Of a DNA stretch of 38,860 nt, positions 14,557 to 37,097 are shown piece after piece (position 1 is the stretch's first letter; every line of letters starts with the position of its first letter). Below the pieces are notes generated by a model. It searched no databases and was not told where the DNA came from. It worked only from the letters and a program-made list of their open reading frames with translations. The translations under genes were made by a program, and so were the position numbers. This DNA is from a virus (lineage: Duplodnaviria > Caudoviricetes). The stretch lies in the IMG/VR virus record IMGVR_UViG_3300011438_000156, positions 1 through 38,860 of that record. One strand, 5' to 3'.

Positions 14557-15873
14557 TTAATCTCTACTTAAAAAATCCTCAACACTTTCTCCTTGTTTAC
14601 GTTCATTGGCCTTAGTAGTTTGCTGATGTGGCCTTCCAGCGTTTACATTTTTCCTCTCACGAGGAGTTTCTTCTTTTTCTTCTTCTTTTTCTTTACCCTT
14701 AGAACGATTATCTTTTAATACATTTGATCTTACTTCTTTTATAACATCAGCTAATACACCTCTAGCTTTACCAAGATAAGATTTTTTAATACCATTGAGT
14801 GAGTTTTCACTAAATTTATCACCAAAAGCACCTTTCCATAACCTATCTAAATTCTTCTTAAAGTTAATATCACCAGCTATCTTTTTATGAAGTTGATCAA
14901 GTGCCTCATTGACAGCATTTCTCTTTTCATAAGCCGTCATTAAACCACGAGGATCAATATACTCAGCAATTGTTGATTTAAGAACATTATCAACTTTAAC
15001 TGTTAAACTATCACGAGCAGACTCAAATCTTTCTTTCATGAGTTCAACTCGTTCTTGCTGAATCTTGTCTGCTTCTTCAGACTTCTCTTCTTTTACTCGA
15101 ACCTTTATAGGTTCCCACTTATCTGTATCAAAGAGAAACTCATGAAGTAATTTAGCAGCTTTGTCTAATTCTTTATCATCCTTGCGTTTGGCTAAATCAG
15201 CCATTCCCAAGATAATTTGTTTTGCAAAATTTCCAGTTACATCCTTATATGCTTCTGGGTCAATATCATGAAGTGTCTTGAGGTATGTATCAACAATTTT
15301 ATCAAATGCTTTAGGATCAGTTTCTTTTACAGTAGATAAAACATTTTTAGTATTACCAGATAAAAGTTCACTTTCAAATTCATTAAGACTATCTACCTTA
15401 GCATATATTGCCTTAGCTTCATCAAATGAACCAAACATTTCAGTGTAAGCTCTATCACGAAACATCATTTTATCGAAGAAAGGGAACTTCTTAAAAAACT
15501 CTGGAAACTCTTTTTCAATTTCTTTTCTACGTGGAGGAGCAATTATATCTTTTTCATTATCTTCCTTTAAATCTAATTTTTCTTTTTCTTCATCATCGTC
15601 ATCATCTTCTTTTAATTTGATTTCATCTTTCTTATCTTTATCATCCTTATCTTCATCATCTTCTTCAGATTTCTCTTTATCACCTTTAGTTTCAAGTTCT
15701 TCTTTATCGTCGTCATCTTCTACTTTAAGTTTACCTTTATCATCTACCTTATCATCATCTAAGAAGGATTCAATATCATCAGCACTTTGATTACCAGCAG
15801 GCTTACCTGCTTTGTCCTTAGAAGTGGACACTTCACCTTTAGGTGCAAATGGATTACTAAACGGGGTTGCCAT
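14557..15873 (-). CDS. Capsid scaffolding protein
   Basis: Very acidic D/E/K N-terminus, helical body, short C-terminal helix ESVEDFLSRD; lies between portal and capsid. Confidence 0.7.
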   Translation of the reverse strand: MATPFSNPFAPKGEVSTSKDKAGKPAGNQSADDIESFLDDDKVDDKGKLKVEDDDDKEELETKGDKEKSEEDDEDKDDKDKKDEIKLKEDDDDDEEKEKLDLKEDNEKDIIAPPRRKEIEKEFPEFFKKFPFFDKMMFRDRAYTEMFGSFDEAKAIYAKVDSLNEFESELLSGNTKNVLSTVKETDPKAFDKIVDTYLKTLHDIDPEAYKDVTGNFAKQIILGMADLAKRKDDKELDKAAKLLHEFLFDTDKWEPIKVRVKEEKSEEADKIQQERVELMKERFESARDSLTVKVDNVLKSTIAEYIDPRGLMTAYEKRNAVNEALDQLHKKIAGDINFKKNLDRLWKGAFGDKFSENSLNGIKKSYLGKARGVLADVIKEVRSNVLKDNRSKGKEKEEEKEETPRERKNVNAGRPHQQTTKANERKQGESVEDFLSRD

Positions 15874-18780: not shown

Positions 18781-20468
18781 TACATTCTCCTTCTTGCAAA
18801 TCGACTTCGACGAACTCCAATTTGACTTTGATGTGTAGCACCAATAAGACTAGGAATAACTCCTTGATTACCTTGATCTATTCTTTCCATCTGCCTATAA
18901 AATCTAGTCATATCATTAGACTTTTCGAGTTCAGTAATAGCATTCTGCCTTGCAATGGCATTAGCCATATCTACTCCAAGCTCTCCGTCAATGAATTTCC
19001 TTGCAGTCTTACAAAGATAACGCAAGTTATCAATAGGATCGTCACCATCAAATTCTTGAATGTCTTCAGGATTTCCTTTGTCATCGTTATAAATACAAAG
19101 AGGAATTGTGTCTGTTAAAATGGTGCAGGTATTGAAGATTTGTAAAATCGGAATATTAGACTCAGATGGTTCATCATAAAACTGTTGCCTATATTTAAGA
19201 AGAGCATCTGTTCCGTAATTCCTAAATATCCAAGCTGCTTTGTCGAGATCATAGAATGCTTCTTTACTTTTAATTGGTATCTTGCTTTCAAATCTTAAGA
19301 AATCATGAATCGTTTGAAGTCCTGCAATTCTTGAACCCGGAGTGTTCTCTGATGAATTAGGAACTAAACCGGAATATCGTTGAAACTGATCAGCAATTGT
19401 CTCAGTTCCTCTTTCCTGCCAAGCACTACCACATATAACACAATAAGTAATAGATTCATTAGTTTCATCATTTATATCTCTTATTTCACTTGCCCAGAAT
19501 GGAATGTCTTTTCCCAACCATGATTTTTCTCTGTATATGTATATCCGCTTATCGGGAGAGATTGCAGCCCACATAGCATGGCACATTGCCCTCTTTCCCC
19601 AATCAATTGACAATAACCTTGGCCACCATTCGGGAATATCAAATGGTTCAATAACATGCAATGCGTTATCTGGTTCACTTGGAAATTTAATTGGTCTAAA
19701 AGTTGTGAAGACACTTCCCTTGAAGGCATGCCAATCACCAAATGCTTTAGCTCTGTATTCTGCTGGATTAGAGATTGCAAGTAGTTTGAGCTTGTTCGCA
19801 TATTCAGGATCATACTCTAAACCAGAAGGATTATCTTGAATGAGAGCTTTAATGAATGTTCTATAAAGACCAGTTCCTTTATCTCTAAAAATCTTTCCAC
19901 CAGTCTCATTATCTTTTACAAATCTATTATAAACAAAAGTTTGTCCTATGCCGCCCGGATTAGAACCATTCCTAACAAGAGCAACATTACACCCAGCAGA
20001 ACTAGGACGGACTCTAGAACCAACAATATAGAAATAAGATTTAGCTTCAAAGTGTGTTAACTCATCATAGAAAGCATAATTATACTGAGCAGAGTCATAA
20101 TCATAAATATTTTTAGTGTGTTGAATGTGACCGAAGTCGTAATAAGAATTATAAGCAGGCCAGAACCATGAGTGTTTATTTTCATTATAGACTCCCCCAG
20201 TTTGTGGGAAATATTCTTTAGAAAGTCTAATGTTCTCCCTTTCCATGTCGGGGAATTTACGACGAAACATAATAGCTCTAAAGCCATGATACTTATACCA
20301 TCCTCTTATTATTGGAAGGAGTGTAAGAATAAAACTCTTACCACCATATGCTGCTCCACCATAAAGAACTTCAAATATTTCATCAGGTAAGGATAGAAGC
20401 AATTCCTGTTTAGGATGTGGCTTTACTTCTTTAATAAAACCATTACCTTCACTATTGATGTCAGACAT
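18780..20468 (-). CDS. terL: Terminase large subunit
   Basis: PHPKQ, Walker A YGGAAYGGKS, Walker B FYDELTH, coupling motif SNPGG, nuclease LSIDWG and DDPIDNLRY. Confidence 0.95.
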   Translation of the reverse strand: MSDINSEGNGFIKEVKPHPKQELLLSLPDEIFEVLYGGAAYGGKSFILTLLPIIRGWYKYHGFRAIMFRRKFPDMERENIRLSKEYFPQTGGVYNENKHSWFWPAYNSYYDFGHIQHTKNIYDYDSAQYNYAFYDELTHFEAKSYFYIVGSRVRPSSAGCNVALVRNGSNPGGIGQTFVYNRFVKDNETGGKIFRDKGTGLYRTFIKALIQDNPSGLEYDPEYANKLKLLAISNPAEYRAKAFGDWHAFKGSVFTTFRPIKFPSEPDNALHVIEPFDIPEWWPRLLSIDWGKRAMCHAMWAAISPDKRIYIYREKSWLGKDIPFWASEIRDINDETNESITYCVICGSAWQERGTETIADQFQRYSGLVPNSSENTPGSRIAGLQTIHDFLRFESKIPIKSKEAFYDLDKAAWIFRNYGTDALLKYRQQFYDEPSESNIPILQIFNTCTILTDTIPLCIYNDDKGNPEDIQEFDGDDPIDNLRYLCKTARKFIDGELGVDMANAIARQNAITELEKSNDMTRFYRQMERIDQGNQGVIPSLIGATHQSQIGVRRSRFARRRM

Positions 20469-20484
20469 TAAGTTCTACTAAAAC

Positions 20485-21042
20485 CTACGCAGTTGCCTCT
20501 ACTTTACTTTCAACATCAATCACTTCATACTCAGTAATTTTACGCTGAGTCGGACAATAGAAGTGATAATGAATATTTTCATTACCTTTATTCTTGTCTC
20601 TCTCAAGTCTCTCTTTGCGTATGTCAGTAATTACTCGACTTGCTGAACTTATGATACTTGGTATGCTACTAACTTTAATTTCTTCTTTATCAACCTTCTT
20701 TTTTAAATAGTTTATGCTTCCAGTAAGAAGATCAAGAGCAGAATCATGTGCTAAGGCTAACTTTATCTTTGCATCAGCATCATTAACATCAAGAGAAGAG
20801 AAAGAAGAGTCAGAAGGTAAAGGTGAGGTTATCTTGGAAGGAACTACCTGAGGAAGATTTGGAATTTCTTTAGGAATTTCTCTAGAAAAAGAAACTTCAA
20901 CTCTTTCTTTCTCTTTATTTCCATTAGGAACAAACAAAGACATAGCATCTTTTTTAGGAGAAGTTAATCCTTCTCTCATTCTATTCAACAAATTGAGAGG
21001 ATTATTTAAGCGTTTCTCTACTTCTTTCTCGTCTATTAACAT
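20485..21042 (-). CDS. Putative terminase small subunit
   Basis: First late gene, immediately upstream of terL; helical; RBS GGAG. Confidence 0.5.
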   Translation of the reverse strand: MLIDEKEVEKRLNNPLNLLNRMREGLTSPKKDAMSLFVPNGNKEKERVEVSFSREIPKEIPNLPQVVPSKITSPLPSDSSFSSLDVNDADAKIKLALAHDSALDLLTGSINYLKKKVDKEEIKVSSIPSIISSASRVITDIRKERLERDKNKGNENIHYHFYCPTQRKITEYEVIDVESKVEATA

Positions 21043-21079
21043 TTAATTATCTCCACTTACACTTTCCCCATGCCCCGTT

Positions 21080-21108
21080 AGTATAAACTTTCTCATTCCA
21101 CTAGTCAA
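21080..21108 (-). promoter_or_regulatory. Sigma70-type promoter for the structural operon
   Basis: TTGACT-17nt-TATACT on the minus strand, 37 nt before the ATG at 21042. Confidence 0.75.
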
Positions 21109-21117
21109 TACCCGAAC

Positions 21118-21135
21118 TGTCATAAAAGGTGGTCA
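21118..21135. promoter_or_regulatory. TGTC-N10-GACA-like box, copy 1 (one mismatch)
   Basis: TGTC ATAAAAGGTG GTCA, 9 bp upstream of the late -35. Confidence 0.55.
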
Positions 21136-21398
21136 CTTTTTCAATTTTCGCCCGAACTATTCGATAAACGAAAATTTCGTTTTTAATTGTTATTTTTTAT
21201 TTTATTTTTTAATTGTTATGTTTATTTATTTATATTTAAGGTATGATTCTTTATTTAGGGTAAGCTCAATATTCCCCCGCGTAGAGTAGAAGAGACGTTA
21301 AAGTAAAAAGGGGCATATACCCGGCAGTCCTTATTATCCAAGCTATCCCCACTAGAATTATAACAAATGTAAAATCGTCCGGCCTCGAAAGAAAATAC

Positions 21399-21427
21399 TT
21401 GACAAGTATTTAGAACTGGCGTCTAAT
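21399..21427 (+). promoter_or_regulatory. Sigma70-type early promoter with a palindrome over the -35
   Basis: TTGACA-17nt-TCTAAT; AAATACTTG-A-CAAGTATTT at 21393-21411. Confidence 0.7.
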
Positions 21428-21445
21428 GGATAGTGAGGTTAACAT

Positions 21446-21619
21446 ATGCGTGTATATCGTATCTACAATCCGAGTAACCCTAACGCTATGTGGTGTGTTA
21501 AGTCAGGCGCTATGATGGTCTGGGATTACACCTTGACAGATAGGAGACAAGCTAGGCGAGCGGTTAGGATGGCTCGGAGATTAGGTTATTCAGTTATCTT
21601 TAGTGAGGTTAAGCAATGA
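21446..21619 (+). CDS. 57-aa basic early protein, not in the ORF track
   Basis: RBS GAGGT; MRVYRIYNPSNPNAMWCVKSG...; ATGA overlap with the next gene. Confidence 0.7.
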   Translation: MRVYRIYNPSNPNAMWCVKSGAMMVWDYTLTDRRQARRAVRMARRLGYSVIFSEVKQ

Positions 21620-21870
21620 CCTACGAATGTGAAATATGTTATGGAGTTAACCACTCTAGTAAGATGCAATGCTCGGCCTGTGGGACTATTCCAAAGCAAT
21701 ACAGCTTACTTAAAACTCCGGCCAGGTTATTACAAACAGACTTAGGAGATATGATTAACGGGTTTATTAGCGTGGTTAGTGCTATCGGAGTCGATAGAAC
21801 AGAACGTCATAGGACTTGTAAGAGAGTCCTGAGAACAGTTCCGGCAGATTATTACGCAAGCATTGATTAG
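21616..21870 (+). CDS. Zn-ribbon protein, 84 aa
   Basis: CEIC-x10-CSAC; RBS GAGGT. Confidence 0.75.
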   Translation: MTYECEICYGVNHSSKMQCSACGTIPKQYSLLKTPARLLQTDLGDMINGFISVVSAIGVDRTERHRTCKRVLRTVPADYYASID

Positions 21871-21871
21871 A

Positions 21872-21916
21872 GTTAGAGCCTAGGGCTTTAGTTAATCTAG
21901 AGCCTCTGGCCGTAAC
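21872..21916 (+). other. Long imperfect hairpin
   Basis: GTTAGAGCCTAGGGCTTTAG-TTAAT-CTAGAGCCTCTGGCCGTAAC; shares TAGAGCCTAGGG with the hairpin near 22573. Confidence 0.5.
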
Positions 21917-21927
21917 CCTTAATCGAG

Positions 21928-21984
21928 TGTCATCTAAAGGAGACAAAAATAGATGTTGACAAATTGACAGAGATATGAGATAAT
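21928..21984 (+). promoter_or_regulatory. TGTC-N10-GACA box (21928-21945) plus promoter
   Basis: TGTCATCTAAAGGAGACA, 10 bp, then TTGACA-17nt-GATAAT with extended TG. Confidence 0.8.
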
Positions 21985-22036
21985 GTATTTACAATAGTGA
22001 CGGGATAGACCTGTCACAAGAAAAGGACAAAGCTAT

Positions 22037-22525
22037 ATGAGCGAAGACCAGATTGCAGCCAAAGAGGCAACTCTAGAGGCAAAGCAAAAGGAAGTAGACG
22101 GCGAGAATGATAAGCGAAAGGTAGAAGGCAAGCTACCTAAAGGCACTCTGCTCCGCATGGGACAGACCAGAGGTAAGAATCCTCAGATTGTGACTTGGGA
22201 AGCATTCGATGAGTCACATCCTGAAACACTGCCGAAGGATATTGGCGAGTTTATGAATCTTACCGAAAAGTATGGTTCTGGAACTGAAGCTAATATGCTT
22301 AGCTGGGTTATTGACGGTTTTAACTCAAGTCAATATACAGCAGCCTCAGACCCTATTGCGGAATTTGTTGACGCCTCTTGGCCCGAAGAGATTCAAAAGG
22401 GCTTTAGGCTTGCAGTCCGTAATTACTCAGTCAATGCAATGGTATCTATTGAGGATGCCGTAGCATTGATTAAGCCCGGAATTGAAAAGGCTGTCGCAGC
22501 TAAGAAGACTGAAAAGCCTGCTTAA
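22037..22525 (+). CDS. Hypothetical early protein, 162 aa, with its own promoter and terminator
   Basis: RBS AAGGA; flanked by a promoter and a terminator hairpin. Confidence 0.85.
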   Translation: MSEDQIAAKEATLEAKQKEVDGENDKRKVEGKLPKGTLLRMGQTRGKNPQIVTWEAFDESHPETLPKDIGEFMNLTEKYGSGTEANMLSWVIDGFNSSQYTAASDPIAEFVDASWPEEIQKGFRLAVRNYSVNAMVSIEDAVALIKPGIEKAVAAKKTEKPA

Positions 22526-22573
22526 TTAGCGGAGTGAGATAGACTCGATAAGTCATACAAACGAGTCTTTAAT

Positions 22574-22616
22574 AGAGCCTAGGGTTTAAGTTTAAAGACT
22601 TAGACTCTAGGCTTTT
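22574..22616 (+). terminator. Rho-independent terminator
   Basis: AGAGCCTAGGGTTTAAGT-loop-ACTTAGACTCTAGGCTTTT. Confidence 0.75.
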
Positions 22617-22629
22617 CGTATTTAGATGT

Positions 22630-23100
22630 GTTTGGTTATTAAGGCTACTGCAGGTCTAAACACGCTATCGGTTGCTATTAAACGCTATCGCAGGCTATCT
22701 CACGCTGACGGTTGTTAAACGCACGTTTTTGCAGGCTTAAAACCCCAGTTAAGGCCAACAAAATCAAGGGTTTACGGCCGTTTTCAAGGTTTACGTGAGG
22801 AAGGGTATGGTGGTCTGGTAGGTGGCTCTTTTAGGGTCTTCTCTTCTTTCTCTTTATTATTATTTTATATATATTATATTATAATAATTAAAAGAAATGA
22901 AAAAATTACACAGCGTCCACAAAAGAGGACACTTGACATCGGTTCTCAGATGTGCTATAGTCTCTGACAGACAGATTTATACATGATACTGGAGTGGGTT
23001 AACCTATTGAGTTACAAGGGCTTACAGGCGTTAGCAGGTCATCCCGTGGTAACCGACAGGCGCCGACAGTCTACAATAGCCTACAATAGTAACCGACAAC
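22630..23100. other. Putative replication origin
   Basis: Non-coding; ACGCTATCG repeats on the left, CCGACA and CTACAATAG repeats on the right in roughly inverted arrangement; central AT-rich tract about 22853-22908; two related 25-bp sites at 22750 and 23000. Confidence 0.5.
22914..22961 (+). promoter_or_regulatory. CGTC-N10-GACA box (22914-22931) plus promoter
   Basis: CGTCCACAAAAGAGGACA, 1 bp, then TTGACA-17nt-TATAGT with extended TG. Confidence 0.75.
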
Positions 23101-23133
23101 ATGAAAACCTACACAATACAGGAGATAATTAAA

Positions 23134-23328
23134 ATGTCTACTAAAGATGAAATAAGGACTAATACGAGGTGTATTCTACAATCGTGGAATGTAAAGAGTG
23201 ATAAGAGTTTTACTCAGGTATACAATAGCCCGTCTAACGCGACTGTGGTAGTCGAGAGAAAAGCCACTGGGATAGTTGATAATGTTCGAGTAATAAGAAC
23301 AATAGAAGGTAAGACTATTGAATGTTAA
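23134..23328 (+). CDS. Hypothetical protein
   Basis: RBS AGGAG before ATG 23134 (start reassigned). Confidence 0.7.
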   Translation: MSTKDEIRTNTRCILQSWNVKSDKSFTQVYNSPSNATVVVERKATGIVDNVRVIRTIEGKTIEC

Positions 23329-23337
23329 AGGGTAAAA

Positions 23338-23721
23338 ATGATAACACATAAAGGTATTAAACTTGGTAAGCAAGTAATAAAAGAAAGAGATATTTTAGGC
23401 GAAAAGAATGATTGCATCGTTAGGGCTTTAATGGAGTCTCTAGAGATACCATATTTAGAAGCCTACGGTATGATGATTGGATTAGGTAGAAAGAGAAATA
23501 AAGGATTAAGGATAGAGGCTCTAGTAGATAATATTTGCGTAGGTAAATATCCACGGCCAAATATGATTGTAGAGAATTATGTGAGGTTTATTGCTCATAG
23601 TGGTAATTGGATAATTGAAATACGCGGTCATGTATTTGCTGTTATAGGTGGATGTATTAAGGATGAATTTCCAAGCGCAGTGCTAAATTGTCATGTTCTT
23701 AATTCTTGGAGAATGAAATGA
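23338..23721 (+). CDS. Small protein with a papain-like Cys-His-Asp pattern
   Basis: NDCIVRAL ... GHVFAV ... IKD. Confidence 0.6.
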   Translation: MITHKGIKLGKQVIKERDILGEKNDCIVRALMESLEIPYLEAYGMMIGLGRKRNKGLRIEALVDNICVGKYPRPNMIVENYVRFIAHSGNWIIEIRGHVFAVIGGCIKDEFPSAVLNCHVLNSWRMK

Positions 23722-23750
23722 ATAAAAATATAGTTTGGGGAAATTAAATC

Positions 23751-23981
23751 ATGAGTGAATTTAAAATTAATAATCAAGTTGTTGAACAGCTTGTTAAAAC
23801 TCCTATCTCTAATAGAATCTCAGATGAGATAATTAAGTGCTCTAAACAATATCAAGAAGGAGCTATAACAGCAGTAGAGTTTATTGCAAAGTGTAATCAA
23901 CTAACTGAAGAGAATATGGAAGAGATTATAAATGAATATGCTAAAGAAAAGGATTATTGGGAAAAGGTTAAGGTAAATTAA
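23751..23981 (+). CDS. Hypothetical protein
   Basis: Co-oriented ORF, GGGGA upstream. Confidence 0.7.
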   Translation: MSEFKINNQVVEQLVKTPISNRISDEIIKCSKQYQEGAITAVEFIAKCNQLTEENMEEIINEYAKEKDYWEKVKVN

Positions 23982-23982
23982 A

Positions 23983-24222
23983 ATGGAATTTAAAAAGGTA
24001 TTATCTAGATTCTATAGGCGATGGTATGATGATTGTTTAGGTTCTATTATATATTGTGAAGAGAATAATAGACCTGAAGATGCACAGAAGTATAGAGATA
24101 AAGCTGATGCTTATAAGAAGTTAATTAGTGAGAATACCGAGGCTATTGAATTTTTTAGTCAAGGTGATAATGCTCATTTGATAGATAAAGCATTGCCTGA
24201 GAAATTCAGAGGATATAAATAA
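23983..24222 (+). CDS. Hypothetical protein
   Basis: RBS AAGGT; starts 1 nt after the upstream stop. Confidence 0.7.
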   Translation: MEFKKVLSRFYRRWYDDCLGSIIYCEENNRPEDAQKYRDKADAYKKLISENTEAIEFFSQGDNAHLIDKALPEKFRGYK

Positions 24223-24579
24223 GTGGACGACAACCTGAAGAATGAATTACTTAAGAGTATTGAATTATCTGGAAGTGTGAATACTGATGATAGAAGAGTA
24301 AATATTATAATCAATGGTGAATTACATAATATTCTTGATAAATCTAGTGGAAAGACTCGGATTAGACCTTTCAAGGTAGGATTATTTAATCTTATCTTGA
24401 GTCAGCCTCTTAGTTTAAGTCGTTTATCTCCCTTTGAAATACGTTGTTTAAATTGTGGTAAAGTTATAAATTACCCTGCATGGTATTATGAATTGAGATT
24501 TGATAGAAACATATTAGTTTATTTTGTATGTTTCTCTGAAACTTCAAGTGATAGAGTGTCCTTAAATTGTAGGAGATAA
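24223..24579 (+). CDS. Hypothetical protein with a possible Zn site
   Basis: GTG start abutting the upstream stop; CLNC plus two later Cys. Confidence 0.65.
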   Translation: MDDNLKNELLKSIELSGSVNTDDRRVNIIINGELHNILDKSSGKTRIRPFKVGLFNLILSQPLSLSRLSPFEIRCLNCGKVINYPAWYYELRFDRNILVYFVCFSETSSDRVSLNCRR

Positions 24580-24594
24580 TTAGTTAAATAGTTT

Positions 24595-24641
24595 GATTAA
24601 GAGTCTAATGTTTATGGTAAATGTTAGACTCTTAATCTTTT
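24595..24641 (+). terminator. Rho-independent terminator
   Basis: GATTAAGAGTCTAATGTTTA-TGG-TAAATGTTAGACTCTTAATC-TTTT. Confidence 0.75.
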
Positions 24642-24656
24642 GTCGGAGAGTAGATA

Positions 24657-24983
24657 ATGGAAAGAGCATTTAAGAATAGTCCTCGTATCGTTACTATCGG
24701 TGGTAAAAGGATGATGGAAAAATACACTCATCAGCCTCTTACTTTCGATCATTTTGATACACATTGCCAAATTCAGGCTAACGGTAGAATTAAGCTTACT
24801 AAACCTGTCCTTGGAAGTGATGAATACGATGAAATAGAAGTCCCAGCTAGTTTGATTTTTAAATTAATGGGATTGCTCAAAGATACCCGGTCTGTTGAGT
24901 TTGTTGAAGTGCCAGATGAGTCTGCTAAGGCTAATCCTTCAGCAGTAGTCAAGGCACCAGAAACACTAAAACAGACTGATTAA
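24657..24983 (+). CDS. Hypothetical protein, 108 aa
   Basis: RBS GGAG. Confidence 0.75.
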   Translation: MERAFKNSPRIVTIGGKRMMEKYTHQPLTFDHFDTHCQIQANGRIKLTKPVLGSDEYDEIEVPASLIFKLMGLLKDTRSVEFVEVPDESAKANPSAVVKAPETLKQTD

Positions 24984-25053
24984 TTTGTGCTCGCTAATAC
25001 TACTATATTTCTCTAGAGGTAGGCGAAATAGAAAGTAGGAGAGCACAATTAGC
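24981..25053 (+). promoter_or_regulatory. Long mRNA hairpin sequestering an RBS and AUU start
   Basis: TTGTGCTC/GAGCACAA, CTACT/AGTAG, TATTTC/GAAATA and TCTA/TAGG stems with a GAGG loop. Confidence 0.7.
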
Positions 25054-25908
25054 TGGTATTGTAAGAAGTGTAAGGCTAATAACGCTAATGTGAATGAGAG
25101 GTGCTATCATTGCCTCTATCACATTGGCGTTATCGTATTTCGTGAGAATATAATTGATTTCTATGATGAAATTGATTATAGTTTAACGAAATATGAAATT
25201 TGGAAAACAGAACAAACTGAATTTGGATTGTTTATTGAGGAGCAGAGAAACATGCCACTAACAAACGAAGAAATTAATAACAATCCAAATATGTCAGAGA
25301 AAGAAAAGAAATTTGCTAGATGGTTTGCATCTGAGAAGATTCTAATATGTGATATGGATGATGGTAATTTAAGAGCACATATAGAAGAGTTACAAGACAT
25401 AGCTTCTGAAGCAAGAGCACGTCTTACAGCTTCTAATGATGAGGCTATGGAAAGAGGTGCTAAAAAGAAGAGAGATAGAGGATTCTCTACTTCTGTAGCC
25501 TCTGATGACTTTACAAGTGAAACAATAAATAATATAGCTGAACGCCAAAAGAAGATGAGTAAGGTTGAGAAAGAGATAGAAAGACTCGTCTCTATAGGCA
25601 TAGATAGAAAGGATGCTGAAAATATGTATAGAGCATCCACAATTAATCAAGTTCAAAAGGTTGGAACTTCTGCTGTATTAGGTAAGACTGGTGAAGTTAA
25701 AGATATTGTAAATAGTATAGTTAATCCTACTGAAGTAGGAGAAAAGAAAACATTTGTTAATCCTTTTGCTCCTAAGCAAGAGCCAATCTCTCAAGATATA
25801 CAAACACAAGCTCAAGTTACTGCAATATTAGTAGAGAAGAAAATCGAAGAAGAAATAAAGCAAGAAGAAAAACCAAAGTTTGTTAATCCATTCGCAAAGA
25901 AAGATTAA
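25048..25908 (+). CDS. RanBP2-type Zn-finger / coiled-coil protein with a probable ATT start (286 aa); a second start is possible at ATG 25252
   Basis: AGGAG-6nt-ATT AGC TGG TAT TGT...; WYCKKCKANNANVNERCYHC fits W-x-C-x2-C-x3-N-x6-C-x2-C; in-frame TAG at 25036 excludes an upstream ATG. Confidence 0.7.
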   Translation: MSWYCKKCKANNANVNERCYHCLYHIGVIVFRENIIDFYDEIDYSLTKYEIWKTEQTEFGLFIEEQRNMPLTNEEINNNPNMSEKEKKFARWFASEKILICDMDDGNLRAHIEELQDIASEARARLTASNDEAMERGAKKKRDRGFSTSVASDDFTSETINNIAERQKKMSKVEKEIERLVSIGIDRKDAENMYRASTINQVQKVGTSAVLGKTGEVKDIVNSIVNPTEVGEKKTFVNPFAPKQEPISQDIQTQAQVTAILVEKKIEEEIKQEEKPKFVNPFAKKD

Positions 25909-25909
25909 T

Positions 25910-26578
25910 ATGGAAAAGATTGATCTTTCTGGCGGCGGAATTATCATTATAGCTTACGGTAATCCAGTTACAATAAAAGAATTTGAAAACAATCCACAAG
26001 TAAAATGGGTTGATACTAAACTTATACCTAATCAAGAGATAGGTAATCATATTCCTGTGAATACCCGTCTTATTATTCTTAATGAGGGAATACCACATTA
26101 TCATTATCTCTGGTTAACTACTCATGCTCCTAAGATGAAAATTGTTTGGTTAATGCGTAAAAGTAGTCAAGCAATTTATGAAGTTTTAAAAGAATATTTA
26201 GGATCTAATGGTAATAAACCATCATTAGATGAAGTTAAGGATACTCAAGCAAAGGGTAAGTTACTAGCACTATTACCTTTTGTTGAATGGAATAAATCTA
26301 ACGCTGAGAATGCTAAAATTCTAATGGCTAAAGCTTTAGAGTTAGGTATTAAAACTAATGAAAATTCTTTAGCTCAATTCATGTCTGTTAAACGTAGAGC
26401 ATTAGGACATGGTGGAATAGTTAAATCTGTTAGAAATCAATTAGATATTTCAGTAGATATATTAGATGAAGCTATTAAGAATTTAGCAAATATAAGAGAT
26501 TTCCTAATCTCCACATCTGAAGAGAATAGGATGTTGAAATCAAAAGCTGAAAAACTTAAGAAAGTAATGGAGGATTAA
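25910..26578 (+). CDS. Hypothetical protein with a C-terminal coiled coil
   Basis: ATG 1 nt after the upstream stop (start reassigned). Confidence 0.75.
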   Translation: MEKIDLSGGGIIIIAYGNPVTIKEFENNPQVKWVDTKLIPNQEIGNHIPVNTRLIILNEGIPHYHYLWLTTHAPKMKIVWLMRKSSQAIYEVLKEYLGSNGNKPSLDEVKDTQAKGKLLALLPFVEWNKSNAENAKILMAKALELGIKTNENSLAQFMSVKRRALGHGGIVKSVRNQLDISVDILDEAIKNLANIRDFLISTSEENRMLKSKAEKLKKVMED

Positions 26579-26583
26579 TTATA

Positions 26584-26898
26584 ATGGAAGAAAATAACAA
26601 AGAAGATATTGAACGTATTAAAAAACTATTTGAGAGTGGACAAAATATTGGAGCTATTTTTACTTCTGATATTGATAGACTAATTGAAGAACATAAAAAT
26701 TTATTCACAGATGTAGAAGAAGCATACATAAACAAGCTAAAACTTAAGCAATTAGGTTCTGATATTTTAGGTATTTTATATGGAAATATTCATCCATTAT
26801 TGTGGTCTGAATTTCTTATGTTAATGAGTAGACATACAGAGTTAATGGCTAATGAAGCTATTAGAATTAGGAAAGAGAGTGATAAAGGTGAAATATGA
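26584..26898 (+). CDS. Hypothetical protein
   Basis: RBS GGAGG. Confidence 0.75.
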   Translation: MEENNKEDIERIKKLFESGQNIGAIFTSDIDRLIEEHKNLFTDVEEAYINKLKLKQLGSDILGILYGNIHPLLWSEFLMLMSRHTELMANEAIRIRKESDKGEI

Positions 26899-27104
26899 TT
26901 AGACTATTCTTAGTATACAGAGTAAATTTAGATAAACCTGAAAGAATTAGAGCAGAAGGTAATAGTAAAGAATATGTAACTGCTGTTCTCTTTGATATAA
27001 TTGAGAATATAGAAGTTTCAGCAGGAGAGAAACCAGTCAAGTGGCAAATTAGAAACACTACTGAGTCATATAAAAACGTTGTAGATTATACTTTGATGGA
27101 GTAA
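26895..27104 (+). CDS. Hypothetical protein
   Basis: ATGA overlap; RBS AAGGTG. Confidence 0.7.
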   Translation: MIRLFLVYRVNLDKPERIRAEGNSKEYVTAVLFDIIENIEVSAGEKPVKWQIRNTTESYKNVVDYTLME

Positions 27105-27107
27105 TAT

Positions 27108-27350
27108 ATGAAAATGACATTTATTAATAAAAAGACATATTCTATTCACGAAGTAGAAAACATTGTCTTAGCATACGAAGAAATACGTAAATTAGCTAGA
27201 ATATTTCAATTAAACGGTGAATTATCAGATAAGCTTGAGTGGGGTGATAATATAGTGATAGATGGATTTAAGTTTCTATTAGATGAATATAAAAAGAAAA
27301 TGTCCTTAAAAGAGGACATGTCATCTAAAGAGGACAAAAATAATACTTGA
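27108..27350 (+). CDS. Hypothetical protein whose 3' end overlaps the tandem boxes
   Basis: RBS GGAG. Confidence 0.7.
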   Translation: MKMTFINKKTYSIHEVENIVLAYEEIRKLARIFQLNGELSDKLEWGDNIVIDGFKFLLDEYKKKMSLKEDMSSKEDKNNT

Positions 27351-27375
27351 CAGGCTCGATAAGACATGATATAAT
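27301..27375 (+). promoter_or_regulatory. Two tandem TGTC-N10-GACA boxes plus a consensus promoter for the replication operon
   Basis: TGTCCTTAAAAGAGGACA TGTCATCTAAAGAGGACA, 10 bp, then TTGACA-17nt-TATAAT with extended TG. Confidence 0.85.
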
Positions 27376-27399
27376 GGATTTAGTTAGTGAGATAACAAT

Positions 27400-28980
27400 A
27401 TGTCTTTAACTTCTATAGTAAAATTAGAATGTCCCGTTTGTCATAAACTGGCTATTGAAGAATCACGTCTTAAAATTGGTAAGACTTCACTGGTTAAATT
27501 ACAGTGTGGTCATTTAACTAATTTTGAAATGTTGGTTAAAGAAGAGTCTGATTATGATAATCTAATCTTCGCAGATGGTGCTAAACCCAGACCATACCAG
27601 ATAGATGCTATTAAATTTGCTGAGAACTCTGGTATTAAATGTATTATAGCTGATGAGCAGGGATTAGGAAAGACAATTGAGGCACTCTGTTTAATTAAAC
27701 TCCATCCTGAAAAGCTTCTACCTCTTGTCTATGTTTGTCCTACCACAGTTAAATTACAGGTTATGCGGGAAATACACAGAATTTGTGGTCCTGCTAATTC
27801 ACCTGAATACTTAACACAAGTTATTCAATCTGGCAAAGAGAAAGCAATGCCAGGTTTTAAGATTTATATTATCACATTCGATATGCTCAAAAAAGAAGAT
27901 GTATTTGAGTATGTCCCTGATATTAAAACTATCATTATAGATGAGTGTCAGAGAATTAAAAATCATCTATCTGATAGAGCTAAAGCTGTTCAAAGGATAG
28001 CGAGTAAATGTGAACATATTATTCCTATGAGTGGCACTCCTATTAAGAACAATGCAGGTGAATATTTCACTGTTCTTAATTTGGTTGCTCCTACTAGATT
28101 TCCACACTATCAGACTTATCTTGATAGATACTGTAATGCATATGATGACTTCTATTCCACTAAGATAGGTGGATTGAAGGATGCTTCACGTTTCCATGAT
28201 ATGACTAAAGATATTGTCATTAGAAGGACTAAAGCTGAGGTATTACCCGATTTGCCTCCATTAGATAGAAAATTCTTTCATGTCGAATTGGATGCTAAAC
28301 TAAATAAAGCATATGCTAAAGCATTAGAAGAGTTAGATGAATTAATCTATGCTGAAGATGCTGATTCATTTAAAGACTCAGGAGCAATGATTGCTGTGAT
28401 GAGTAAACTTCGGCATATTACTGGTATAAGTAAGATACCAGATTGTGTTGAATTTACTACTGAGTATCTTCTATCTACTACAAGAAAGCTAGTAATATTC
28501 ACGCATCATACAGATGTTGCTGATATATTGAAAGTTAAATTAAATGATTATCTTAAGCCAATAGGTGATGAAGTCCTTCATCTTCATTCTGGCTTAGATG
28601 CTAATAAGAGAGCACAACTAGTGATGGATTTTGAGAAGAATAAGAACAGAGTAATGATAGCATCCACACTTGCAGCAGGTGAAGGATTAAATCTTCAATT
28701 CTGCTCAGATGCTATTATGCTAGAAAGACAATGGAACCCGGCCAATGAAGAACAAGCTGAAGCTAGGTTCCATAGATTTGGACAATTAAACAGTGTCACA
28801 GTTACTTATCTTCTGGCTTCTGGCACTATTGACGAGTATTTCACTGAGCTTGTTGAGAGAAAAAGAGCGATAGTAGCACAGACTATGGATAATAAAGAAG
28901 TGCAATGGGAACAAGCATCTTTAATGAAAGAGTTGGCTACTATGCTAAGCACAAAAGGCAGGGAGAAATGGAGATTATAA
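27400..28980 (+). CDS. SNF2-family helicase-like ATPase with an N-terminal Zn ribbon
   Basis: RPYQ, ADEQGLGKT, DECQRIKN, SGTPIKN, AAGEGLNLQ, QAEARFHRFGQ; CPVC...CGH. Confidence 0.93.
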   Translation: MSLTSIVKLECPVCHKLAIEESRLKIGKTSLVKLQCGHLTNFEMLVKEESDYDNLIFADGAKPRPYQIDAIKFAENSGIKCIIADEQGLGKTIEALCLIKLHPEKLLPLVYVCPTTVKLQVMREIHRICGPANSPEYLTQVIQSGKEKAMPGFKIYIITFDMLKKEDVFEYVPDIKTIIIDECQRIKNHLSDRAKAVQRIASKCEHIIPMSGTPIKNNAGEYFTVLNLVAPTRFPHYQTYLDRYCNAYDDFYSTKIGGLKDASRFHDMTKDIVIRRTKAEVLPDLPPLDRKFFHVELDAKLNKAYAKALEELDELIYAEDADSFKDSGAMIAVMSKLRHITGISKIPDCVEFTTEYLLSTTRKLVIFTHHTDVADILKVKLNDYLKPIGDEVLHLHSGLDANKRAQLVMDFEKNKNRVMIASTLAAGEGLNLQFCSDAIMLERQWNPANEEQAEARFHRFGQLNSVTVTYLLASGTIDEYFTELVERKRAIVAQTMDNKEVQWEQASLMKELATMLSTKGREKWRL

Positions 28981-34359: not shown

Positions 34360-34587
34360 ATGACTTCTTTTGATTTACTTAAAACTCTAATTAGAATTTG
34401 GAATGATAGAAATAATCCCAACGCTAAAATTCTTATTGCCGAAGTTAATGTTATAGAAGAAGGAACGGATATTAAATTTTTTTCAAATATGAGCGATGAA
34501 CAAGTTATATTTATTATGGAACAACATATGAATAGAGTTAGATTAACAAATCCAAGTGCTTTTAATATTTTGGAATCTAAAGAATAA
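34360..34587 (+). CDS. Hypothetical protein
   Basis: Abuts both neighbours. Confidence 0.7.
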   Translation: MTSFDLLKTLIRIWNDRNNPNAKILIAEVNVIEEGTDIKFFSNMSDEQVIFIMEQHMNRVRLTNPSAFNILESKE

Positions 34588-37097
34588 TGCCAAACTACGT
34601 CCCTGGAGTTGGTCCATTTGAGCCTAAGCTAATGATAATTGGCGAAGCTCCGGGTAAATATGAAAATGATTCAGGCGTTCCATTCGTAGGACCAACTGGT
34701 CAAGAATTAGATAAGTGTCTCTTTAAGGCTGGTATTAGACGTGATGAATGTTATATAACTAATGTAGTTAAATATCAACCACCGTTTAATGATTTTGAGA
34801 AGCTTCATCTTATAGGAGTAGATTTAAACACTTCAATTCAAGACCTCTGGGATAATGAAATTAAAAAATTCAATCCAAACTGTATCCTCGCTGTTGGAGA
34901 TCGTGCTCTTAACGCTGTCACTGATTACAGCGGTATACTTAATCATAGAGGAAGTATTCTATTAGCTAAGGATGCTAAAACCAAAGTAGTTCCAACTATC
35001 CACCCGGCTGCTCTATTTCCAAAGAATAAATACGGAGATGAAAATGAGCATGGTGGAAAATCTGGAGCATTACCTTGGACTTACATGAAGTTAATTGAAC
35101 ATGATATTATAAGAGCTAAAGAGGAATCTGAATCTCCTATTCTTAATCTCCCTGCAAGAGATTTAATGATTGCTAATAACAGCCTTGATGTATTTCGTTT
35201 CTTTCGAGAATATGAAAAACTTGATAAAGCTGTCATTGATATTGAATCAATTAATTGCGTTCCTGTTTGCCTCGGATTCGCTTTTAATAAACATCATGCG
35301 TTGTCTATTCCTCTTATTAGGTCTATTGGTAATATACAGTTTACTGATATGGGTTTTAATGAGATGTGCGAGGTATATCGTCTTATAGATAAAGCATTAA
35401 GAACTCTTAAACTTATAGGTCATGGCTTATCTTATGACCATTATAAATTATCACTCATGGGATTCCAACTTAAATATGTTTATTCTGACACATTAACTAA
35501 GACCCGTGTTCTTTTTCCAGAATTACCAATTAAACGTCTCCATGTAGTTTCCTCAATCTGGACTAGAGAACCATACTATAAAGAAGAAGGTAAAGAATTT
35601 CGTGTAGGCAAGGATAGACCAGAGCAACTATTAAAATATAATGGTAAAGATTGTGCTGTAACTTATGAGGTTGATGAGAAACAAGATATTGATTTAGATG
35701 AAATAGGACTACAATATAATGTTCCACTTAGAGACTACTATTACAATTATCAAATGAAGAAACATTATTTCTATCTTAATATGTCAAATAATGGATTTAA
35801 AGTAGATTTTGCTAGGCAAAAAGAATTAAAGACCAAATATAAAGAACTTCAAAAGGAAGTTCATGCTCGATTAGTAGCTTCTATAGGTGATGAAATAAAT
35901 GTAAAATCTAATCCTCAGAAGAAGAAACTTTTTTATGATATTATGAAATTTAAATATATGAAGAGAAATCCTACAGCTGAAGAGACTATTGTTACGTTAA
36001 TTAATAATCATTGTAAGGGAAATAAGGCTAAATTTAAACCAATACTTGAAGATATACTTGAAGAAACTAGAATACGAACTCAACTTAGCAGGGATATATC
36101 TTTCAAAGAAGATTATGATTTGAGGTGTAAATCCACCTTTAATGTAATAGCGACTGAGACTTGTAGAACAAGCACTGGTATATTAAAAAATCCACTTAGA
36201 CCAAAAGGAATGAAGATTGGTTTAGGTTTTCATATGATGGCTAAACATGGACGATTAGGTAAAGATGTCCGGTCTATGCTTATATGTGATACTGATATGG
36301 TAATGATTAAAGCAGATTCTTCTCAAGCAGAAGCTAGAGTTGTTGCTGTTTTAAGTGAAGACTGGGAATTACTTGAAGCATTCGATAAAATAGACATTCA
36401 TAGAAGAACAGCAGGATTACTTAATCAATGGACTAAAAAACTTGAATTGGGAGTCGATTTTAAACATGAGATTATAGACTCTCTTGATAGAGATTCTCCT
36501 GAAAGATTTACTGGTAAGAAAGTCAGGCACGCCGGGAATTATGATATGAAGAAGCATACCCTTATGATTGCTTATAATACAGATGCCCAAAAGTTTGATA
36601 TTAAAGCAGATATAAGTGAATGGAAAGCAGGTCAAATGCTTGACTTATTTCATGCTGCTAGTCCATTAATAAGAAATAGATTTCATGCAGATATTAAAGA
36701 CTGTATTAATTCTACTCGCCTTTTAATTGACCCGTTTGGTGGTCCACGTGTATTCAATGGAAAGCTTGAAGATGATACATATAGAGAGGGTTTTGCTAAT
36801 ATTCCTCAAAGAACAGTAGCTCATTTAGTTCAAGGTGCAGCATTAAAGATTGAAGAAGAATTAAATAATGACCTTCCTAAAACCTATATGTGGATGAGTG
36901 AAGATCATGATAGTTTAACTCTTCAAGCACCAGCAAATAATTGGGAGCCATACGCAAAGCTTATGAAAAAACACCTTCAAACACCAATCGACTTCAATGT
37001 CTATTGCTCTCTTAAAAGAGATGTTAGATTAATTATTCCTTCTGCTATTGAAATTTCTGATACACATTATGGTGCATTTAAGCAGGTGAAGATATGA
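34587..37097 (+). CDS. polA: Family A DNA polymerase with N-terminal family-4-like uracil-DNA glycosylase and 3'-5' exonuclease domains
   Basis: UDG: IGEAPG, PFVGPTG, TNVVK, HPAA. Exo: IDIES, YD, YNGKD. Pol: ADSSQAEARV, R...KKVRHAGNY, PQRTVA, HDSL. Confidence 0.93.
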   Translation: MPNYVPGVGPFEPKLMIIGEAPGKYENDSGVPFVGPTGQELDKCLFKAGIRRDECYITNVVKYQPPFNDFEKLHLIGVDLNTSIQDLWDNEIKKFNPNCILAVGDRALNAVTDYSGILNHRGSILLAKDAKTKVVPTIHPAALFPKNKYGDENEHGGKSGALPWTYMKLIEHDIIRAKEESESPILNLPARDLMIANNSLDVFRFFREYEKLDKAVIDIESINCVPVCLGFAFNKHHALSIPLIRSIGNIQFTDMGFNEMCEVYRLIDKALRTLKLIGHGLSYDHYKLSLMGFQLKYVYSDTLTKTRVLFPELPIKRLHVVSSIWTREPYYKEEGKEFRVGKDRPEQLLKYNGKDCAVTYEVDEKQDIDLDEIGLQYNVPLRDYYYNYQMKKHYFYLNMSNNGFKVDFARQKELKTKYKELQKEVHARLVASIGDEINVKSNPQKKKLFYDIMKFKYMKRNPTAEETIVTLINNHCKGNKAKFKPILEDILEETRIRTQLSRDISFKEDYDLRCKSTFNVIATETCRTSTGILKNPLRPKGMKIGLGFHMMAKHGRLGKDVRSMLICDTDMVMIKADSSQAEARVVAVLSEDWELLEAFDKIDIHRRTAGLLNQWTKKLELGVDFKHEIIDSLDRDSPERFTGKKVRHAGNYDMKKHTLMIAYNTDAQKFDIKADISEWKAGQMLDLFHAASPLIRNRFHADIKDCINSTRLLIDPFGGPRVFNGKLEDDTYREGFANIPQRTVAHLVQGAALKIEEELNNDLPKTYMWMSEDHDSLTLQAPANNWEPYAKLMKKHLQTPIDFNVYCSLKRDVRLIIPSAIEISDTHYGAFKQVKI

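What the first reader, a model, noticed from the sequence alone, without database searches (positions are those of the whole stretch)
24981..25110. AUU-initiated RanBP2-type Zn-finger gene locked in a switchable hairpin
Seen: the ORF-track GTG start (25090) cuts a perfect W-x-C-x2-C-x3-N-x6-C-x2-C finger in half. Between the in-frame TAG at 25036 and the Trp there is no ATG, GTG or TTG, but AGGAG sits 6 nt before ATT (25048). RBS and ATT lie in the 3' arm of a 70-nt hairpin that begins at the upstream stop codon. The bulged GCTAAT (24993-24998) is also complementary to ATTAGC (25048-25053), giving an alternative pairing. The apex reads AGAGGUAG. Established: AUU starts are rare and IF3-sensitive (infC); some RanBP2 fingers bind GGU RNA, although this one lacks their NFARR residues. 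Inference: layered translational control giving a rare long isoform and a short isoform from GAGGAG/ATG 25252.
Basis: partly seen in the sequence, partly recalled or inferred. Interest (0 to 1): 0.78.

Follow-up and report, generated by a model that had tools for sequence, protein, structure and literature searches.

The report
Phage zinc-finger gene with ATT start
A phage gene of an uncharacterised family keeps an intact N-terminal zinc finger whose only candidate start is ATT, in the place where relatives have ATG, GTG or TTG, so it likely makes a little of a long form beside a main short form, while the hairpin in front of it is likely a feature of the upstream gene's end and not a switch.

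Summary
The window is a phage contig. ATT 25048 lies two codons before an intact RanBP2-type finger. 25 of 26 related finger loci have ATG/GTG/TTG 1-4 codons before that Trp (control 11 of 114), and the extension is open in 31 of 31 loci. A contig from another study shows no change at ATT. A second, SD-led start is family-wide (M/V/L in 71 of 72), so two nested isoforms are likely.

The switch is not supported. The alternative pairing has probability ≤0.001 and is missing in the one relative sharing the hairpin (L017, TTG start). No family finger (0 of 82) has RNA-binding residues. Hairpins follow the upstream gene's stop in 21 of 29 loci, also where the finger gene lies far away; one clade has an uncatalogued covarying RNA motif there.

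Best reading: a weak AUU start, opened when ribosomes terminate upstream and perhaps limited by RNase III-type cutting, gives a scarce finger-bearing subunit of a predicted dimer. Main rival: ATT is a decayed start. Known mechanisms in a new family; moderate interest.

The parts
24657..24983 (+). upstream conserved gene A (108 aa, no known family or fold); its stop is the anchor of the hairpin
24985..25048 (+). 64-nt spacer hairpin (basal stem 24985-92/25041-48, 7x2 internal loop, second stem 25000-04/25034-38, variable top); shared with L017 and partly seen in run X4
25037..25041 (+). SD-like AGGAG, 6 nt before ATT, largely paired
   Evidence: anti-SD duplex -7.3 kcal/mol
25048..25050 (+). 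ATT, likely start of the long isoform
   Evidence: contigs
25048..25908 (+). long isoform, 286 aa: finger + linker helix + core
25054..25113 (+). RanBP2/NZF-type C4 zinc finger
25079..25133 (+). second hairpin inside the finger-coding sequence (-27.3 kcal/mol), covarying in 6 near-clade loci
25133..25196 (+). third long hairpin in the linker-coding sequence (-24.0 kcal/mol); conservation beyond L017 not tested
25237..25254 (+). GAGGAG and ATG 25252, likely start of the short isoform (218 aa)
25300..25455 (+). helical hairpin (residues 85-136), predicted self-dimer interface present in both isoforms

Best explanation
The ATT at 25048 is likely a real but weak start for a 286-aa zinc-finger form of a phage protein whose main 218-aa form likely starts at ATG 25252, and the hairpin likely belongs to the end of the upstream gene and would let ribosomes reach the ATT mainly when others terminate at that gene's stop. 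Step by step. (1) Shown: the family encodes a finger extension in frame with the core, with its start 1-4 codons before the Trp and a second start at the core. (2) Shown: finger starts are poor ones: 10 of 26 non-ATG, weak SD, more structure, often abutting the upstream stop. Inferred: the long form is normally made by translational coupling. (3) Shown: this lineage and L017 carry a 64-nt hairpin between stop and start that brings a strong SD, and both have a weak codon (ATT; TTG at 11 nt). Inferred: the weak codon offsets the SD and keeps the long form scarce. (4) Predicted: a ribosome on the stop melts the basal stem and lowers the cost of opening the ATT region from about 18 to 10-12 kcal/mol. 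(5) Inferred: the long stems after gene A protect its mRNA 3' end or are RNase III-type cut sites; a cut in the finger-coding stems would leave an mRNA that makes only the short form. (6) Predicted: both forms dimerise through residues 85-136, so a scarce finger-bearing chain would join short chains; the finger is more likely a protein-binding module than an RNA reader.
For: Start column: 25 of 26 distinct finger loci have ATG (16), GTG (5) or TTG (4) within 4 codons of the Trp, against 11 of 114 control Trp codons; a near-cognate codon at -2 occurs in 8 of 114 controls. 36 of 60 finger proteins have the Trp at residue 3, as ATT gives. Coding: extension open ≥34 codons in 31 of 31 loci vs 11 of 62 off-frame; pN/pS 0.39-0.42 vs core 0.36 in 13 far-clade loci; window vs L017 extension pN 0.23, pS 0.56. 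Not an error: run X1 (possibly the source) has 0 differences; a contig of run X4, another study, spans 24972-25095 with 3 other letters, no gap and no change listed at 25048-50. Internal start: M/V/L before the core motif in 71 of 72 extension-bearing proteins that match it, GTG where V could be read in DNA (L002, L043); SD -8.7 and opening cost 6.2 kcal/mol at 25252. Coupling: 13 of 27 loci have an upstream stop within -4..+15 nt; all 7 spacers of ≥40 nt that were folded are structured, z -1.65 to -7.4. Hairpin after gene A: 21 of 29 loci with z<-2 vs 7 of 29 inside gene A and 6 of 27 other stops of the window. Dimer: score 0.69, best control 0.00; the mark was reached by 20 of 30 solved pairs and 1 of 23 single chains; runs agree in ≥44% of contacts, pLDDT ≥66.
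Against: No expression data; no raw reads seen. ATT was seen in only two contigs that are about 98% identical, so selection on it is not shown. Even with the ribosome modelled, the opening cost stays 10-12 kcal/mol against 0-6 in loci with abutting stops. In the near clade the extension's pN/pS is 0.65-0.66, higher than the core's 0.38. 98 of 158 homologue proteins have no W-x-C finger start (70 other or half-finger extensions, 28 core only), so the finger is dispensable in some lineages. 3 of the 8 loci where the finger gene lies >200 nt away show no hairpin after gene A (L009, L042, L051). The link between strong SD and weak codon is 3 of 5 vs 3 of 22, p=0.056. Loci are related, so p-values are optimistic. 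RNase III cutting is an analogy only.
Confidence: 0.55

Rival explanations
1. ATT is a recently decayed start. The long form is effectively off in this lineage, and the finger stays intact because the change is recent and the sequence is held by RNA stems.
For: ATT is derived and seen only in near-identical contigs. SD and codon are buried (cost 18 kcal/mol). Many homologues lack the finger. Synonymous change in the finger between window and L017 is low (pS 0.21 vs core 0.64), consistent with RNA constraint or a recent transfer. AUG-to-AUU switches are very rare under selection (1 of 61,358; PMC5622118, passage).
Against: Near-cognate codon in the exact start column (control 8 of 114) with a 6-nt SD spacing; all ligands intact; L017 independently has a weak TTG; AUU mRNA with a good SD gave 28-74% of AUG output in E. 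coli extracts (PMC5499595, passages).
Confidence: 0.25
2. The 64-nt element is a sequence-specific regulatory RNA (protein- or ligand-binding) that gates the AUU start, not a generic 3'-end stem.
For: Window vs L017: 1 difference in 33 basal columns, including the unpaired UAAUA and GA, vs 12 in the other 32 (region chosen after seeing the alignment). A third, partial copy in run X4 has a different upstream flank and the same 3' arm. The element and finger moved as a block (finger 83% identical to L017, gene A 60%). A far clade has a different conserved-loop motif at the same position.
Against: Only two full copies; 0 of 19 pairs compensatory; no Rfam match; no further copy in 37 loci, 27 records or 47 pattern hits; no second stable fold.
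Confidence: 0.11
3. One reading: GCUAAU pairs with AUUAGC as a switch and the finger binds the AGAGGU apex to autoregulate.
For: The complementarity and the GGU are present; RanBP2-type fingers of the ZRANB2 kind bind GGU (PMC6384913, passages).
Against: Pairing probability ≤0.001, +9.7 kcal/mol; not conserved in L017; 0 of 82 fingers have N-[WFY]-[AS]-[RKW]-R; the apex occurs in 2 of 27 finger loci; some RanBP2-type fingers do not bind RNA (PMC6384913).
Confidence: 0.05
4. Assembly error: the true sequence is ATG.
For: Low depth (7.1 in X1, 3 in X4); most homologues have ATG.
Against: X1 contig identical over 24500-26200; the X4 contig of another study shows no change there.
Confidence: 0.04

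Closest known systems
AUU-initiated infC and pcnB of E. coli (PMC5472188, PMC5499595; passages)
   Same: AUU codon behind a good SD; expected to be weak and IF3-sensitive.
   Different: infC's AUU is conserved and closes a feedback loop. Here ATT is lineage-specific (homologues ATG/GTG/TTG), and it limits one isoform of a phage protein.
Translational coupling by re-initiation or SD unmasking ('facilitated binding'; PMC2268962, passages)
   Same: Upstream stop abuts the start in 13 of 27 loci; in the window the stop sits at the foot of the stem that hides the SD.
   Different: The coupled start makes the long isoform of a nested pair; a 64-nt stem bridges stop and start.
Nested N-terminal isoforms: SigR/SigR' (PMC5472188), CheA-L/S (PMC13515050); T7 gp4A/4B and lambda S107/S105 (recalled, no call)
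   Same: Two in-frame starts; the long form adds an N-terminal module (in T7 gp4A also a zinc-binding domain, recalled) to a self-associating core.
   Different: Unrelated protein family with no Pfam, PHROG or NCBIfam assignment; long form on a non-canonical codon.
RanBP2/NZF zinc fingers (Nup153, RanBP2, TAB2/3, Trabid, ZRANB2, archaeal ArnA)
   Same: W-x-C-x2-C-x3-N-x6-C-x2-C; profile and model match.
   Different: Phage-borne; lacks the RNA-reading residues; loop consensus N-x-N-L-N or L-G-E-L-N; partner unknown.
RNase III processing stems such as T7 R1.1 (PMC1540722, passages)
   Same: Long intergenic stems after a stop; the far-clade motif has a 12-bp stem above an asymmetric 3x4 loop, like substrates cut once to leave a protective 3' hairpin.
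   Different: Cleavage untested; the window's spacer hairpin is more interrupted; host and host RNase III unknown.

Membership tests
RanBP2/NZF-type zinc finger | W-x-C-x2-4-C-x3-N-x6-C-x2-C spacing | tested here: met
   Window matches; Asn 45 of 60, third Cys 59 of 60, fourth Cys 52 of 60 in homologues selected only on W-x-C..C.
RanBP2/NZF-type zinc finger | profile or fold match to solved fingers | tested here: met
   Family profile: best E 0.0026 (Nup153), most of 43 rows are such fingers; model pLDDT 92-97 over residues 1-30; Foldseek top rows mostly rmsd 0.3-0.9 A but E ≥1.1. The window protein alone has no Pfam PF00641 hit at E ≤0.1; 6 of 150 members hit at E ≤0.05.
RanBP2/NZF-type zinc finger | binds zinc | not testable with these tools
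   Needs metal analysis.
   0 of 82 four-Cys fingers.
infC-type IF3-controlled AUU start | AUU with SD in the start position | tested here: met
infC-type IF3-controlled AUU start | non-canonical codon conserved across homologues | tested here: not met
   0 of 26 other finger loci have ATT as the only candidate start; one has CTG only.
infC-type IF3-controlled AUU start | initiation at the codon and IF3 dependence | not testable with these tools
   Needs Ribo-RET or reporters.
Two-state RNA switch | second fold of similar energy, conserved | tested here: not met
Known Rfam RNA (riboswitch, twister or other ribozyme) | match to a covariance model | tested here: not met
   Nothing at gathering score in the window; only chance-level rows to E 10 for the element; 20 related loci gave one tRNA only.
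Intrinsic terminator | GC-rich stem followed by a U tract | tested here: not met
   The 24985-25048 hairpin is not among the 7 terminator-like sites of 20400-27400.
Coupling by SD unmasking | stop within ribosome reach of the stem that hides the SD | tested here: met
   Stem starts 1 nt after TAA; modelled opening cost falls by 6.6-7.9 kcal/mol.
Coupling by SD unmasking | downstream translation depends on upstream translation | not testable with these tools
   Needs a dicistronic reporter.
RNase III processing site | helix of ≥11 bp next to the cut, about two turns in all | tested here: inconclusive
   Stems 25079-25133 and 25133-25196 are long enough; proximal and distal box rules were not scored; cleavage not testable.
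H-NS N-terminal oligomerisation domain | Pfam PF22470 match | tested here: inconclusive
   8 of 150 members, best E 7.7e-5, not the window protein; fold search gave only generic helical hairpins, Z ≤5.7.

The most novel reading that the evidence does not exclude
A widespread soil and freshwater phage family tunes a scarce zinc-finger isoform of a dimeric protein through exchangeable RNA cassettes placed at the upstream gene's stop. At least two are undescribed sequence-specific RNA motifs (the window's 64-nt element; the far clade's covarying 3x4-loop stem), and in this lineage the cassette plus an AUU codon makes the isoform ratio respond to host IF3.
Probability: 0.15. Interest if true: 0.72.

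Novelty: new variant of a known kind. Interest (0 to 1): 0.42.

Why it matters
It is a well-supported candidate for a natural AUU start in a phage; only two E. coli genes use AUU (PMC5499595). All three gene calls on record for this contig miss it (P0001 at 25252, P0160 and the Atlas record at 25090), and four close homologues are also called in mid-finger. It defines an unannotated phage family (275 clusters at 50% identity) with a RanBP2-type finger on a likely minor isoform, and it points to uncatalogued structured RNAs at one locus. If IF3 or stress set the isoform ratio, it would be a simple model of a phage reading host initiation fidelity. The mechanisms themselves are known.

Tried and rejected
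Alternative pairing and GGU autoregulation: rejected. Twister, lysine or preQ1 riboswitch likeness (recalled): no Rfam support, and a by-eye mapping to twister did not fit. More copies of the element: 0 hits in viral contigs with two patterns; one genome hit, L028, an archaeal secE-spt5 intergenic stem of other shape, chance; 47 hits of a looser pattern lack the basal stem (best 24 bits, L081); model R1 found nothing else in 37 loci or 27 records. The far-clade model R2 does not match the window or five near loci. Ribosomal hopping or readthrough from gene A: not needed, since homologues have separate stop and start, and readthrough meets TAG within 9 codons. Idea that the extension is non-coding RNA only: rejected. 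Function of the core and gene A: no family, no usable Atlas hit, no clear fold, no GenBank phage match. Single-sequence locus searches found nothing. Sequencing runs: no RNA holder listed. Only contigs were laid, so base-level read support at 25050 remains open. DNA for P0002, P0003, P0006, P0007 and P0010 was not obtained, so their start codons are unknown. Host not identified. Earlier findings: none. Paper searches listed nothing on this family; supplements were not read.

Full report
Context. The window is a whole 38,860-nt virus record, 84% complete by the tool's estimate. It has a terminase, helicase, exonuclease, Sak4-like protein, DNA polymerase and endolysin. Structural genes run on the minus strand up to about 21 kb and replication-side genes on the plus strand after it. 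The finding lies in the plus-strand block, between a 108-aa gene A (24657-24983) and a gene of no known family. Strong sigma70-like promoters lie at 21956, 22933 and 27347. The host was not identified.

Observation. All coordinates check. The hairpin spans 24985-25048 (z -2.66; 4 of 200 shuffles). The proposed alternative pairing has probability ≤0.001 even when the basal stem is forced open, costs 9.7 kcal/mol, and arises in 7.9% of shuffles.

The finger is coding. The family has 275 representatives at E ≤0.001. Of 158 homologues inspected, 60 begin with W-x-C..C, 50 of them with the Trp at residue 2 or 3; 28 begin at the core; 70 have another or a half-finger extension. In DNA, after dropping duplicates, the window's own contig (L016, L029), the chance hit L028, truncated loci (L011, L019, L027) and loci without the core (L036, L044), the in-frame extension is open for ≥34 codons in 31 of 31 loci, against 11 of 62 off-frame. 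In 13 far-clade loci the extension's pN/pS is 0.39-0.42, like the core's 0.36; in the 6 near-clade loci it is 0.65-0.66 vs 0.38 (pS near saturation). The family profile hits RanBP2/NZF fingers (best E 0.0026), and the model is confident there, with weak Foldseek support. PMC6384913 (passages) reports both RNA-binding and non-binding members of the fold.

ATT is in the start column. 25 of 26 finger loci have ATG (16), GTG (5) or TTG (4) within four codons of the Trp; L037 has only CTG. The control is 11 of 114 Trp codons, and 8 of 114 for a near-cognate codon at -2. Run X1, which may be the source, is identical. In run X4, another study, one 151-nt contig spans 24972-25095 with three other letters and no gap, and no change is listed at 25048-50, 45 nt from the aligned end. 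I infer ATT there from the absence of a row; depth is 3 and no raw reads were seen. ATT is derived: L017 reads ...CACAATCTCTTG TCT TGG where the window reads ...CACAATT AGC TGG. The simplest history, inferred, is an ATG weakened twice.

Two starts. The residue before the core motif is M, V or L in 71 of 72 extension-bearing proteins that match the motif, with GTG in the two V cases seen in DNA. This is a start-codon signature. In the window ATG 25252 aligns with Met in P0002, P0003, P0011 and P0025, has the stronger SD (-8.7 kcal/mol) and opens cheaply (6.2). Over 27 loci the finger start has a weaker SD than the core Met (median -2.4 vs -5.6, p 0.05) and is more structured (11.2 vs 8.0, p 0.002; loci are related). 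In 13 of 27 an upstream ORF of ≥60 codons stops within -4..+15 nt. This fits re-initiation or SD unmasking as described in PMC2268962 (passages), which also reports that IF3 lowers SD-less re-initiation.

The hairpin. It recurs in L017 and partly in X4, but not in L018, L020-L022, where stop and start nearly abut. Window and L017 differ at 1 of 33 basal columns and 12 of 32 others, with 0 of 19 compensatory pairs. Gene A is closer to L018 and L022 (74%, 72%) than to L017 (60%), and the core is closest to P0002 and P0003, while the finger is 83% identical to L017. So the hairpin and finger likely moved as a block, or are strongly constrained. The wider pattern matters more: a strong stem follows gene A's stop in 21 of 29 loci, vs 7 of 29 inside gene A, 9 of 27 before it and 6 of 27 other stops in the window. 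It is present in 5 of 8 loci where the finger gene lies >200 nt away. Where no spacer exists in the near clade, the stem is written into the finger codons, with 5 of 16 compensatory pairs in 6 loci. Seven far-clade loci, chosen by eye, share another motif with 14 of 20 compensatory pairs and a 3x4 internal loop, not in Rfam; it has a second copy in one record. The stem therefore tracks gene A's 3' end. A protective 3' stem or RNase III-type site is the closest analogy (PMC1540722, passages: 11-bp minimum, internal loops give single cuts that leave a 3' hairpin); this is untested. Seven of the eight spacers of ≥40 nt were folded (L009 was not) and all seven are structured. Modelling a ribosome on the stop lowers the cost of opening the ATT region from 18 to 10-12 kcal/mol, still above the 0-6 of abutting loci.

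The protein. Finger, linker helix, helical core (residues 84-210) and a low-confidence tail with two NPFA motifs. The core has no clear fold match. Two copies of residues 69-210 are predicted to bind through 85-136: score 0.69, best control 0.00; mark reached by 20 of 30 solved pairs and 1 of 23 single chains; runs agree in ≥44% of contacts, pLDDT ≥66. A weak H-NS N-terminal hit in 8 of 150 members may be only coiled-coil likeness. Both isoforms carry this interface, so mixed dimers would be possible.

Verdict. Shown: finger, ATT position, family-wide nested starts, hairpins. Inferred: initiation at AUU, coupling, processing, mixed dimers. AUU starts are rare (two E. coli genes, 28-74% of AUG output in extracts, IF3-sensitive, PMC5499595; 1 of 61,358 AUG starts switched to AUU, PMC5622118; infC and sigR, PMC5472188; isoform examples, PMC13515050). 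All seven papers were seen as search passages only, without supplements. T7 gp4 and lambda S are recalled. Eight answered paper searches listed nothing on this family. Interest 0.42.

Noticed in passing
L001:1408-1470, L006:3349-3404, L008:3896-3952, L010:1655-1712, L012:3322-3378, L035:396-452, L037:3305-3362; also G011 and a second copy at G006:C1:11730-11789: Uncatalogued structured RNA right after gene A's stop: lower stem, UGA/AAUU-type 3x4 internal loop, 12-bp upper stem; 14 of 20 pairs compensatory; no Rfam match; in 8 of 28 records searched.
   Followed up: partly
window 24595-24637 and 22574-22615: Near-perfect 19-20-bp hairpins followed by T runs (terminator-like); the first lies just before gene A with no strong promoter found after it, so gene A may depend on readthrough or an unrecognised promoter.
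   Followed up: no
window 25759, 25885 (+); 11189, 15855 (-): An NPFA motif occurs twice in this protein (conserved family-wide) and in two other proteins of the phage (10974-11354 and the likely scaffold-like 14557-15873); possibly a shared docking motif.
   Followed up: no
L001, L006, L009, L010, L012, L032, L042, L051 (between gene A and the finger gene): This junction is an insertion hot spot; L006, L009 and L012 carry an inserted ORF with long Asn/Tyr trinucleotide runs (NNYYY...) of varying length.
   Followed up: no
P0036, P0041, P0042, P0046 and others; L002:3754-4000: Many homologues replace the finger by a different conserved in-frame extension (E-x-E-L-G-x-F...A-K-x-x-N-K-x-x-C), so the N-terminal module is exchangeable.
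   Followed up: no
P0006, P0007, P0010, P0013; L037:3437-3455: Four near-clade proteins are called in mid-finger (P0013's cluster has a missed TTG, L017); L037 has only CTG behind a GCTGAA repeat. More non-canonical starts may be hidden here.
   Followed up: partly
window 34587-37097 (+): Family A DNA polymerase with an N-terminal domain that looks like uracil-DNA glycosylase (read from the sequence, not tested).
   Followed up: no
window 21956, 22933, 27347 (+): Three near-consensus extended sigma70-type promoters (11-12 of 12).
   Followed up: no
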